Shown piece after piece: positions 14,801 through 17,800 of a stretch of DNA of 64,000 nucleotides. Location: assembly GCF_001677475.2 (NCBI RefSeq), contig NZ_CP015229.1; one strand, written 5' to 3'. This DNA comes from Escherichia coli (GTDB lineage: Bacteria > Pseudomonadota > Gammaproteobacteria > Enterobacterales > Enterobacteriaceae). Each line of letters begins with the position of its first letter. The first letter of the stretch is position 1. The position numbers are program-made.

Positions 14801-17800
14801 AGACAGTGTCGTTATCAATTGCTCCGGTACCACTTTTAAATGGCACAGGAGTTTCCGGTAATACAGACGCGTTTGCGGCAAATGAAGCCATCATGATAGC
14901 AAGCGCCATTATTGTTTTATTCATTGTGACTGTCTCCTGTCTACTACAGTTTAAATGACACACCAATGCGATAACTGTTTTCCGATAAATTATCTCTGCC
15001 GTTGTAAACACCCTGGCGGTCAAGGTAGTCATATTCTATGTATGGCGTAATATCGGGCGTCATATGGTATTGTAGAACAAAGGCATTTTCCGTCGCCCAT
15101 TTCTTGTGGTTTGCATAGCGATAATCATTCTGTTTGCTGTATAGCGTCGTTTGCCATGCGAAGGTGAAATCACTATTAATATGGTAAGTGACATATCCAT
15201 CCCAACGATGAACGTTATCACGAGACATATCACCGGATAAGTCTTGTTGTCGGTAAGCTTTCCAGTCGTAACGATAGCGAATGCCAAAATTAAGATCTTT
15301 TGTCGCGTCCCAGGACAGTTTTACGTAGGGTCCGTAGCGTGTGCCGTTGCTGCTAAAATGCGTTAACATTCCCGGGCGCACCGTCCATTGATCATCAAGT
15401 TTAATCGCGTAATTAACTTCAACCTGAACATCATTGAGTGCGGCATTTTCCTTTTTATTATCATGAATGGTATTCCAGGTATTACTTTCCATGCTTGCCC
15501 ACCATCCATTTTGCCATCCCTCACTGACTTTGAGTCGAGTCTCATAGGCATGGCTTCCGCTACGATATCCACCACGTACGTCCAGTGTCGCAGCCTGAGA
15601 AATTAATGGTGACGAAAAGCACAGTAATAATACGCCAGAAAGTATTTTAGCCTTTTTCATAAATTTCACTCATTTGTAGGATACAGAAAGCAATACAAAG
15701 CCCGCATAAACAATTAGCATTTATGTTGTGTAATATTCTTTGCCAGGCTTATAGTGTCTTTGGCAACGGGTAGCTTATTTTATATTTTTTGTATAAGGTC
15801 TCCTGTGAAAATTCTCTTTCCACATTATTTAAATAAACAGAGAACCAGATTAAATACCTGAGTATAAAATCTCTTCTGATGTTTAATTGATTTGAATATT
15901 CGTAAGCTATGTCACTTACTCAATCCATTTTACCCAGAGTCATAAAATAGAGTGTCTGTTGATCTCATTTTCATATTCCTTTCAGACTGAAGTGCGTTTT
16001 CATCACCCGATGAGAAAGAACTGAAGTGATGTTTGCCATAGATTGCGAGATGCCCTGTCTCATTGACTATCTTGGTTCACCTTTATACCTGTTATACAAG
16101 ATCAAAAATCACGCAATCCATACAACAAAACCAGATTTGCAATTCGTGTCACAAAATATGTCGATATTTTTCTAAGAAGAAGATGCCATGTGAAGCCAAA
16201 CGAACACTTGCGGAGGCCTTCACAAACCAAAGATTGTTGTTTAATTATCTGTTTTATAAGTACTTTATATAAAGTGTAAACAAGGAAAGATTTGCAAGCT
16301 AACTCAGTGGGCGTGGTGAAAATAAGTGTTTACCCCCATCAGGCTGAGCATAATTCTCATCATGAAATATGTTTCATGGTTTGTGGCTTGTAACTGGTCG
16401 CTTCTGAAGTCGATCTGGAGAGGCTTGTTGATGTTGGTGTTTTCAGGATGATGTTTCACTTAGTTTGTTTGCCGTATCGCCCGGCGAATAGCTGTGATTG
16501 AGGAAGGTTTAAGTCGTAGTGACCAAAGCCATATTTACCCACGAATGTAGATGAAAAAATCATCTCCTGCGTTCCCCCATATCTCCAGGATAAAAAGGAA
16601 TGTAACAATCTCATGGCGTAAGCTGACGAACTAGGCAGGAATAATCGCTAGGGACCTAAGCATTAGCATGATAATAGCCACTAAGAAATTACTGCGTTCC
16701 ATGAAATAGCCATTTTGTGGCAAATGGAGTTGACTAATAATGTCATATGTGAGACGGCTAGTTGAACGAATATTAAATTTTGCTGAATTTTTTATGTTGA
16801 TTTTACTTGTTACAGAACATATCACATGATATATAGATAAGATTAGTTGCATTAATGATGAGGGTTATTATTAGATTCGTATCCGATTGATAAATATATA
16901 AAGTTACATAGCATGCAAGAGCATGGCGTTTGTATGGCAACGTTATTATAATTAACTGTTGCTACTCTATTTAAGTTCACTCAGAAGAACTGGTCCACTT
17001 ACGTTAGTTATTAAGCAAACGTTCGCTTTTATAAACATAATCAGGATTAAAATGTTGGATTATTGCTAACCCAGCACAGCTAGTGCGCGTCTGTAATTAT
17101 AAGGGAAAACGATGAAGAATAAGGCTGATAACAAAAAAAGGAACTTCCTGACCCATAGTGAAATCGAATCACTCCTTAAAGCAGCAAATACTGGGCCTCA
17201 TGCAGCACGTAATTATTGTCTGACTTTGCTTTGTTTTATTCATGGTTTCCGGGCGAGTGAAATTTGTCGATTGAGGATTTCGGATATTGATCTTAAGGCA
17301 AAGTGTATATATATCCATCGATTAAAAAAAGGCTTTTCAACAACGCACCCGCTATTGAACAAAGAAGTTCAGGCTTTAAAAAACTGGTTGAGTATCCGTA
17401 CTTCTTATCCGCATGCTGAGAGCGAGTGGGTATTTTTATCACGTAAGGGGAATCCGCTTTCTCGGCAACAGTTTTACCATATTATCTCGACTTCCGGTGG
17501 TAATGCCGGGTTGTCACTGGAGATTCATCCGCACATGTTACGCCATTCGTGTGGTTTTGCTTTGGCGAATATGGGAATAGATACGCGACTTATCCAGGAT
17601 TATCTTGGGCATCGCAATATTCGTCATACTGTCTGGTATACCGCCAGCAATGCAGGGCGTTTTTACGGCATCTGGGATAGAGCCAGAGGACGACAGCGTC
17701 ACGCTGTTTTATAGAGATAGTTGAGATACCAGGGATGGTGTTAAAAACTACATTATTCTTACGATATATCAAAAATGATTAACCATTTATTAATTGATGT

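What the first reader, a model, noticed from the sequence alone, without database searches (positions are those of the whole stretch)
15661..17111. Long AT-rich nanC-fimB intergenic region with a NanR-type operator
The roughly 1.45-kb non-coding interval contains GTATAACAGGTATAAAGGTGAACC (minus strand, 16074..16097), which closely matches the NanR GGTATA-repeat operator. This fits the known sialic-acid control of nanC and of fimB from a distance.
Basis: partly seen in the sequence, partly recalled or inferred. Interest (0 to 1): 0.3.

Follow-up and report, generated by a model that had tools for sequence, protein, structure and literature searches.

The report
Known NanR operator, with lineage-specific mutations
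The flagged sequence is the well-studied NanR (sialic-acid repressor) binding site between nanC and fimB of E. coli, so the finding is ordinary, except that this strain's lineage carries two private base changes inside the site, one in a base that is otherwise invariant.

Summary
Window 15661-17111 is the 1,451-bp, AT-rich (36% GC) nanC-fimB intergenic region. The quoted 24-mer is there and is the orthologue of the K-12 NanR operator O_NR. The two NagC operators lie beside it, identical to the published K-12 sites: O_NC1 at 16138-16160 and O_NC2 at 16349-16371. A Dam GATC abuts the NanR site, and the SlyA site is at 16663-16674. Distances to the fimB promoter fit the published about -760 to -470. 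This system is already known (Blomfield, Plumbridge and Vimr laboratories).

The only new point is a variant. The operator, best placed at 16076-16098, reads TGTATA-ACA-GGTATA-AA-GGTGAA, against GGTATA-ACA-GGTATA-AA-GGTGCA in K-12.
- Neither change was detected in 5,426 complete E. coli genomes.
- The first G is G in 90 of 90 related operators across Enterobacterales.
- The variant recurs in four independent assemblies, so it is a real lineage allele.
- The lineage is divergent: at most about 98% identity to any complete E. coli genome.
- NanC, FimB and FimE proteins are unchanged.

Published biochemistry says NanR needs at least two GGTATA repeats; only one perfect repeat remains here. Whether NanR binding is weakened was not tested. 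Interest is low.

The parts
14944..15660 (-). nanC coding sequence (N-acetylneuraminate outer-membrane channel), first gene of nanCMS
   Evidence: The protein is identical to K-12 NanC; all 7 nucleotide differences are synonymous. It has a KdgM/OmpL-family match.
15661..17111 (.). nanC-fimB intergenic region, 1,451 bp, 36% GC
   Evidence: It is present in 5,020 of 5,426 complete E. coli genomes at 80% coverage or more, with no annotated gene. There is no Rfam match.
16076..16098 (-). NanR operator O_NR, variant allele: TGTATA-ACA-GGTATA-AA-GGTGAA
   Evidence: It is the orthologue of the K-12 operator and the only hit to the (GGTATA)3 consensus in the window. Lineage-private substitutions are at 16098 and 16077.
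16093..16098 (-). Repeat 1, TGTATA (GGTATA in all other genomes examined)
   Evidence: G at this position in 90 of 90 Enterobacterales operators and in 8 sampled E. coli alleles. No E. coli genome shares a 28-mer containing the variant.
16084..16089 (-). Repeat 2, GGTATA (the only exact repeat)
16076..16081 (-). Repeat 3, GGTGAA (GGTGCA in K-12; a degenerate repeat)
   Evidence: The third repeat varies naturally among species.
16100..16103 (.). Dam site GATC next to the NanR operator ('GATC-NanR')
   Evidence: A GATC lies within 8 nt upstream in 49 of 90 related operators. The literature is PMC5155068.
16138..16160 (+). NagC operator O_NC1 (published site 'fimB1')
   Evidence: Identical to TGCAATTCGTGTCACAAAATATG in PMC3098098 Table 1. 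It is invariant in 7 alleles and ranks 9th of 63,978 positions with a NagC matrix built without the fimB sites.
16163..16166 (.). Position of the K-12 GATC next to O_NC1; it reads GATA here
   Evidence: The position is polymorphic in E. coli: GATA in the M3 and TUM11353 alleles, GATC in K-12, O157, EC19 and MRSN346647.
16211..16340 (.). Hypervariable stretch between the two NagC operators (the presumed loop), with IHF-like near-matches at 16242-16269
   Evidence: There are 9-17 variable columns per 50 bp here, against 0-7 elsewhere. Only 1-mismatch IHF-consensus hits were found, so this part is inconclusive.
16349..16371 (+). NagC operator O_NC2 (published site 'fimB2')
   Evidence: Identical to CATAATTCTCATCATGAAATATG. 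It is the top NagC-matrix hit in the whole window, 20.5 bits against 12.9 for the next.
16663..16674 (+). SlyA operator O_SA1, TTAGCATGATAA
   Evidence: The sequence is given in PMC3173223 and is present unchanged.
17112..17714 (+). fimB coding sequence (type 1 fimbrial switch recombinase)
   Evidence: NCBIfam NF007370, 458 bits. The protein is identical to K-12 FimB.

Best explanation
This is the E. coli nanC-fimB regulatory region. The flagged sequence is its NanR operator (O_NR).

How it works in K-12, from the literature:
- Dimers of the GntR-type repressor NanR bind cooperatively to tandem GGTATA hexamers.
- From this one site NanR represses the divergent nanCMS operon and, together with NagC bound at O_NC1 and O_NC2, activates fimB from about 0.5-0.8 kb away.
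- Sialic acid (Neu5Ac) releases NanR, and its breakdown product GlcNAc-6-P releases NagC. nanCMS then rises, fimB falls, and off-to-on switching of type 1 fimbriae drops.

What is shown here: orthology, and the exact positions of O_NR, the adjacent GATC, O_NC1, O_NC2 and the SlyA site.

What is inferred: that the same logic operates in this strain. That inference is qualified, because this lineage's O_NR carries two derived substitutions. Repeat 1 is GGTATA->TGTATA and repeat 3 is GGTGCA->GGTGAA, so only one exact hexamer remains. My best guess is that NanR still binds, through cooperative use of the 5/6 and 6/6 repeats, but with lower affinity. That would make nanCMS leakier and the NanR share of fimB activation smaller.
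For: Orthology and flanking genes:
- 98% alignment to the K-12 region.
- The flanking genes are identified as nanC and fimB.

The site itself:
- It is the only match to the NanR consensus in 64 kb, against 0 in 100 shuffles.
- The GATC is adjacent (PMC5155068).
- The published NagC sites are identical in sequence and score highly with an independent matrix.
- Distances agree with PMC3173223.
- SELEX found the nanC/fimB spacer as the NanR target.
- The operators are conserved while the DNA between them is variable.

The variant:
- It is private to the window among 8 sampled alleles.
- No complete E. coli genome shares either variant base.
- G is invariant in 90 of 90 related operators, and also in a 77%-identical orthologue of the region.
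- The variant recurs in 4 independent assemblies.
- At least two repeats are needed for high-affinity NanR binding (PMC8012715).
Against: - No binding or expression data exist for this allele.
- The primary mapping papers (Sohanpal 2004 and 2007, Condemine 2005, Kalivoda 2003 and 2013) could not be read here. The exact footprint limits and the nanC start site therefore rest on secondary citations and on my memory.
- The consensus promoter scan was uninformative: 5 hits against 5.8 expected.
- The effect of a G1->T change in one hexamer on NanR affinity is unknown.
- The enrichment of private substitutions in the operator is only nominal: 2 of 11 in 23 of 1,451 bp, Poisson P about 0.013.
Confidence: 0.9

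Rival explanations
1. The operator is fully functional despite the two changes. NanR cooperativity tolerates a 5/6 first hexamer, and regulation of nanCMS and fimB is indistinguishable from K-12. On this reading the substitutions are neutral drift.
For: - The third repeat is naturally degenerate in many species, with 8 different versions.
- The K-12 nanC operator already works with two exact repeats.
- The central repeat, both spacers, the GATC and both NagC sites are intact.
- nanCMS, fimB and fimE are under purifying selection.
Against: - The changed G is invariant in 90 of 90 operators and in all sampled E. coli alleles.
- A single exact repeat binds NanR no better than a poly-AT control (PMC8012715).
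- Two of 11 private substitutions fall in 23 bp that should be more constrained than average.
Confidence: 0.4
2. The operator is functionally weakened or decaying in this lineage. NanR occupancy falls, nanCMS is partly constitutive, and fimB loses part of its NanR-dependent activation and sialic-acid sensitivity. Control is then left mainly to NagC and SlyA.
For: - Only one exact GGTATA is left.
- At least two repeats are required.
- There is no compensating NanR-like site elsewhere in the region.
- The variant is fixed across several isolates of a divergent lineage.
Against: - TGTATA keeps 5 of 6 bases and the correct spacing.
- Base-specific contacts of NanR are not resolved; the cryo-EM structure is at 3.9 A.
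- nanR status in this lineage is unknown.
- No phenotype data exist.
Confidence: 0.45
3. The two differences are sequencing or assembly errors, or the match to the NanR motif is a chance occurrence in AT-rich DNA.
For: None beyond the AT-richness of the region.
Against: - The same allele occurs in 4 independent assemblies or runs at 99.99-100% identity over 6.7-9.1 kb.
- The chance expectation for the motif is 0 in 100 shuffles.
- The site is orthologous to the K-12 operator.
Confidence: 0.01

Closest known systems
E. coli K-12 O_NR, the NanR operator of the nanC(yjhA)-fimB intergenic region ('region 1' of El-Labany 2003 and Sohanpal 2004)
   Same: Positional orthologue. The flanks are identical over 101 bp, and the central GGTATA, the spacers (ACA, AA), the adjacent GATC, the neighbouring O_NC1 and O_NC2 and the distance to fimB are the same.
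   Different: There are two substitutions inside the operator. Repeat 1 is G->T (minus strand, 16098) and repeat 3 is C->A (minus strand, 16077). Neither was found in 5,426 complete E. coli genomes.
nanA operator, (GGTATA)3, the reference NanR site used for the cryo-EM and binding studies (PMC8012715)
   Same: The same 19-nt core GTATAACAGGTATAAAGGT, the same spacing, and a GATC just upstream.
   Different: nanA has three exact hexamers. This site has one exact, one 5/6 and one 4/6.
nanX(yjhB)-nanY operator of K-12
   Same: It has GGTATA-ACA-GGTATA-AA-GGTATA with a GATC. A 77-bp block 84% identical to the O_NC1-to-O_NR stretch of the nanC-fimB region suggests a duplicated regulatory module.
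   Different: It is a different locus that is not in this window, and it has three exact repeats.
NagC operators O_NC1 and O_NC2 of fimB
   Same: The sequences are identical to the published 23-mers, with TT/AA at positions +/-5,6 as required for NagC/Mlc sites.
   Different: Centre-to-centre spacing is 211 bp here against 212 bp in K-12, a one-base deletion at 16335/6. The K-12 GATC next to O_NC1 is GATA here, a polymorphism shared with other E. coli.

Membership tests
NanR (GntR/FadR-type) GGTATA-repeat operator of the E. coli sialoregulon | Two or more GGTATA hexamers in direct repeat, separated by 2-3 nt | tested here: inconclusive
   The spacing and register are correct, but only one hexamer is exact: TGTATA-ACA-GGTATA-AA-GGTGAA. 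GGTATAN{2,3}GGTATA gives 0 hits, and there are 3 mismatches to the 23-nt consensus. The K-12 orthologue meets the criterion with two exact repeats.
NanR (GntR/FadR-type) GGTATA-repeat operator of the E. coli sialoregulon | Lies upstream of a NanR-regulated operon (nanATEK-yhcH, nanCMS or yjhBC) | tested here: met
   It lies 416-438 bp upstream of the nanC start codon, on the nanC strand. nanC, nanM and nanS were identified.
NanR (GntR/FadR-type) GGTATA-repeat operator of the E. coli sialoregulon | Dam GATC site within about 5 bp of the operator | tested here: met
   GATC at 16100-16103, 1 nt from repeat 1. The literature is PMC5155068.
NanR (GntR/FadR-type) GGTATA-repeat operator of the E. coli sialoregulon | Orthology to the experimentally mapped K-12 operator | tested here: met
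   The alignment is 98% over the whole region with identical flanks. The position relative to the fimB promoter matches PMC3173223.
NanR (GntR/FadR-type) GGTATA-repeat operator of the E. coli sialoregulon | NanR binding that is relieved by Neu5Ac | not testable with these tools
   This needs EMSA, AUC or in vivo footprinting with this allele.
NagC operator (ROK-family quasi-palindrome, 23 bp) | TT and AA at positions -6,-5 and +5,+6 around the centre, and a match to known NagC sites | tested here: met
   Both sites are identical to the published fimB1 and fimB2 sites and have TT/AA at +/-5,6 (rule from PMC4288165). With a matrix built from the 8 non-fimB sites they score 20.5 bits (rank 1) and 10.4 bits (rank 9 of 63,978).
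NagC operator (ROK-family quasi-palindrome, 23 bp) | Two sites positioned for cooperative looping | tested here: met
   The centres are 211 bp apart. The requirement for two sites is stated in PMC5401889. Loop formation itself was not tested.

The most novel reading that the evidence does not exclude
In a divergent Escherichia coli lineage, at most about 98% identical to any of 5,426 complete genomes, the shared NanR operator of nanCMS and fimB has been disabled or retuned by two derived substitutions. One of them hits a G that is otherwise invariant across Enterobacterales. The result would be a natural uncoupling of type 1 fimbrial phase switching and nanCMS repression from the host sialic-acid signal, while the NagC and SlyA inputs and all coding sequences stay intact.
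Probability: 0.3. Interest if true: 0.4.

Novelty: already known. Interest (0 to 1): 0.15.

Why it matters
As written, the finding re-identifies a textbook regulatory region. In it, sialic acid and GlcNAc released during inflammation shut down fimB, and so reduce type 1 fimbriation, while inducing nanCMS. Confirming it adds nothing new. The modest value lies in the variant allele. It is a ready-made natural test of which bases of the GGTATA hexamer NanR needs, and of how much of fimB control depends on NanR as opposed to NagC. It also shows that this operator, fixed in thousands of E. coli genomes, can change in a lineage that keeps nanCMS and the fim genes intact.

Tried and rejected
- Primary papers: attempts to read Sohanpal 2004, Kalivoda 2013 and Condemine 2005 by DOI or PMC id failed because they are not held. 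Secondary open-access sources were used instead.
- Promoters: the sigma-70 and terminator consensus scan of the region was uninformative, with 5 promoter-like hits against 5.8 expected. The nanC promoter was therefore not located.
- Rfam: no RNA family matched in 15500-19900.
- Metagenomes: the scan for the TGTATA variant gave 0 contigs. No positive control was run, so this is weak evidence.
The species-representative collection did not contain the window's allele.
- IHF: there is no exact WATCARNNNNTTR match between the NagC sites, only three 1-mismatch hits at 16242-16269.
- Compensating sites: the search for a second NanR-like site found none in the region.
- Rejected readings: a chance match, a sequencing error, and artificial or random mutation of the window, since the flanking genes differ from K-12 only by synonymous changes.

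Full report
**1. The observation.**
The reverse complement of window 16074-16097 is exactly the quoted GTATAACAGGTATAAAGGTGAACC. The interval 15661-17111 runs from the nanC start codon (complement, 15660) to the fimB ATG (17112). On the left are nanC, nanM and nanS. On the right are fimB, fimE, the fimS switch and fimA-H. The interval is 36% GC against 47.9% for the whole window.

The nanA-type consensus GGTATAACAGGTATAAAGGTATA, allowing 3 mismatches, hits once in 64 kb, at 16076-16098 on the minus strand. No hit occurred in 100 shuffles. The better register is 16076-16098, which reads TGTATA-ACA-GGTATA-AA-GGTGAA.

**2. What it is.**
The interval aligns end to end with the K-12 MG1655 nanC-fimB intergenic region at 98% identity. 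It is present, unannotated, in 5,020 of 5,426 complete E. coli genomes. The site is the positional orthologue of the K-12 sequence GGTATAACAGGTATAAAGGTGCACC.

The open literature supports this assignment:
- NanR binds tandem GGTATA repeats in three operons, including nanCMS (PMC8012715; PMC3658417).
- The nanC/fimB spacer is the NanR target in genomic SELEX (PMC5934670).
- NanR sites lie within 5 bp of a GATC at nanA, nanC and yjhB (PMC5155068).

The window fits these reports. The GATC is at 16100-16103. The SlyA site TTAGCATGATAA is at 16663-16674. Anchoring on that site puts the fimB start near 16857. That places the NanR site at about -759 to -781 and O_NC2 at about -486 to -508.

**3. NagC sites.**
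The two published fimB NagC operators (PMC3098098 Table 1) are present unchanged. O_NC1, TGCAATTCGTGTCACAAAATATG, is at 16138-16160. O_NC2, CATAATTCTCATCATGAAATATG, is at 16349-16371. Both have the TT/AA at +/-5,6 that defines NagC/Mlc sites (PMC4288165).

A matrix built only from the eight non-fimB sites ranks O_NC2 first in the whole window, at 20.5 bits against 12.9 for the next hit. It ranks O_NC1 ninth of 63,978 positions. The centres are 211 bp apart.

Across seven alleles the operators are conserved, while the DNA between the two NagC sites (16211-16340) is the most variable part of the region. That pattern is what a protein-bridged loop would predict. Only 1-mismatch IHF-like sequences occur near the midpoint.

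**4. The twist: a mutated operator.**
Compared with K-12, the window differs at two positions in the 101 bp around the operator, and both lie inside it.
- Repeat 1 is TGTATA instead of GGTATA (plus-strand A at 16098, C in K-12).
- Repeat 3 is GGTGAA instead of GGTGCA (plus-strand T at 16077, G in K-12).

These changes are rare:
- None of 5,047 complete E. coli genomes carrying the region is more than 98.0% identical over that 101 bp.
- A 41-nt query in which every 28-mer contains a variant base finds nothing in 5,426 genomes.
- Eight sampled alleles spanning 87-98% identity all have the K-12 bases. One, ST12468, instead has a 9-bp deletion in the operator.

An unbiased scan of one genome per species for the 19-nt core, which leaves the first base free, returned 90 operators across Enterobacterales. 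All 90 have G at that position, whereas the third repeat takes eight different forms. A divergent orthologue of the intergenic region, only 77% identical (E. coli E69), still has both exact repeats.

Within the region, 11 substitutions are private to the window. Two of them fall in the 23-bp operator, against 0.17 expected (nominal Poisson P about 0.013).

**5. The variant is real.**
An exact-protein look-up with the window's NanM found 20 contigs. Four representative loci were examined, from two NCBI assemblies and two sequencing runs. They are 99.99-100% identical to the window over 6.7-9.1 kb, and all carry the same operator.

The source lineage is unusually distant from sequenced E. coli. 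The best identity to any complete genome is 97.8-98.8% across core genes. NanC, FimB and FimE are nevertheless identical in protein to K-12, with only synonymous changes. This is natural divergence under purifying selection. I could not name the lineage.

**6. How it most likely works.**
- *Known, from the literature:* NanR dimers bind the hexamers cooperatively. High affinity needs at least two repeats at the native spacing, and one repeat binds no better than a poly-AT control. Neu5Ac weakens binding (PMC8012715). NanR at O_NR, with NagC at O_NC1 and O_NC2, activates fimB from a distance; NanR and NagC repress nanC. The amino sugars released by the host therefore lower fimB and raise nanCMS.
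- *Shown here:* every cis element of that circuit is present at the expected place.
- *Inferred:* the circuit operates in this strain. Because only one exact hexamer remains and no second NanR-like site exists in the region, NanR occupancy may be reduced. I rate 'weakened' and 'tolerated' as roughly equally likely. Neither can be decided without a binding assay.

**7. Comparison and novelty.**
This is the K-12 O_NR/O_NC1/O_NC2 system itself, and the feature is already known. Membership in the NanR-operator family is met for location, GATC adjacency and orthology. It is inconclusive for the defining criterion of at least two GGTATA repeats, and untestable here for binding. The only new element is a lineage-specific operator allele. 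Interest is low, at 0.15. The most novel reading not excluded is a natural uncoupling of fimbrial switching from sialic acid in this lineage (probability about 0.3).

Noticed in passing
window 16163-16166: The GATC next to NagC operator O_NC1 in K-12 is GATA here. From memory of Sohanpal 2004, that site is the Dam site protected by NagC. The position is polymorphic in E. coli: GATA in the M3 and TUM11353 alleles, GATC in K-12, O157:H7, EC19 and MRSN346647. Any Dam-NagC interplay at this site therefore cannot be universal.
   Followed up: partly
window 16211-16340: A hypervariable patch lies between the two conserved NagC operators. It has up to 17 variable columns per 50 bp among 7 alleles, against 0-7 elsewhere, and includes a one-base length difference. 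Most of the window-to-K-12 divergence in the region is concentrated here.
   Followed up: partly
L103 4568-4655 (K-12 nanX/yjhB upstream) vs window about 16079-16155: The K-12 nanX(yjhB) upstream region shares a 77-bp block, 83-84% identical, with the O_NC1-to-O_NR stretch of the nanC-fimB region. It includes a NagC1-like sequence next to its (GGTATA)3 operator. This looks like a duplicated regulatory module.
   Followed up: partly
L095 (ESY002), L097 (ST12468), hit H8 (UTAK-5): In other E. coli genomes the nanC-fimB intergenic region is interrupted by insertion sequences (IS1, IS1A, ISKpn26). ST12468 also has a 9-bp deletion inside the NanR operator. The region seems to be a recurrent target of disruption.
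   Followed up: no
whole window (e.g. 1-12700, 26100-30500, 30500-55000): The source genome is at most 97.9-98.4% identical to any of 5,426 complete E. coli genomes, even over core genes (pepA, lptFG, gntP-uxuAB). No insertion sequences were evident. It appears to be a basal or cryptic Escherichia lineage. Carriers of the same allele include GCA_025810455.1 and GCA_018683435.1.
   Followed up: partly
L009, L022, L076: Contigs labelled as a Bacteroides MAG, Methylobacterium mesophilicum and Chryseobacterium sp. carry enterobacterial NanR operators. L009 is identical to the K-12 nanC-fimB site. These are most likely contamination in the assemblies.
   Followed up: no
window 18836-19149: The fimS invertible element is 314 bp, flanked by the 9-bp inverted repeats TTGGGGCCA. 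It is intact, 98% identical to the MG1655 reference sequence and in the same orientation.
   Followed up: partly
window 37796-43036 (-): A 1,746-aa open reading frame is annotated in matching E. coli genomes as the inverse autotransporter IatD. It is absent from K-12 at this position.
   Followed up: no
window 11689-12618 (-), next to nanS: An HNH endonuclease / ScoMcrA-like DNA-binding protein gene sits immediately downstream of nanS. K-12 has the yjhR pseudogene region there.
   Followed up: no
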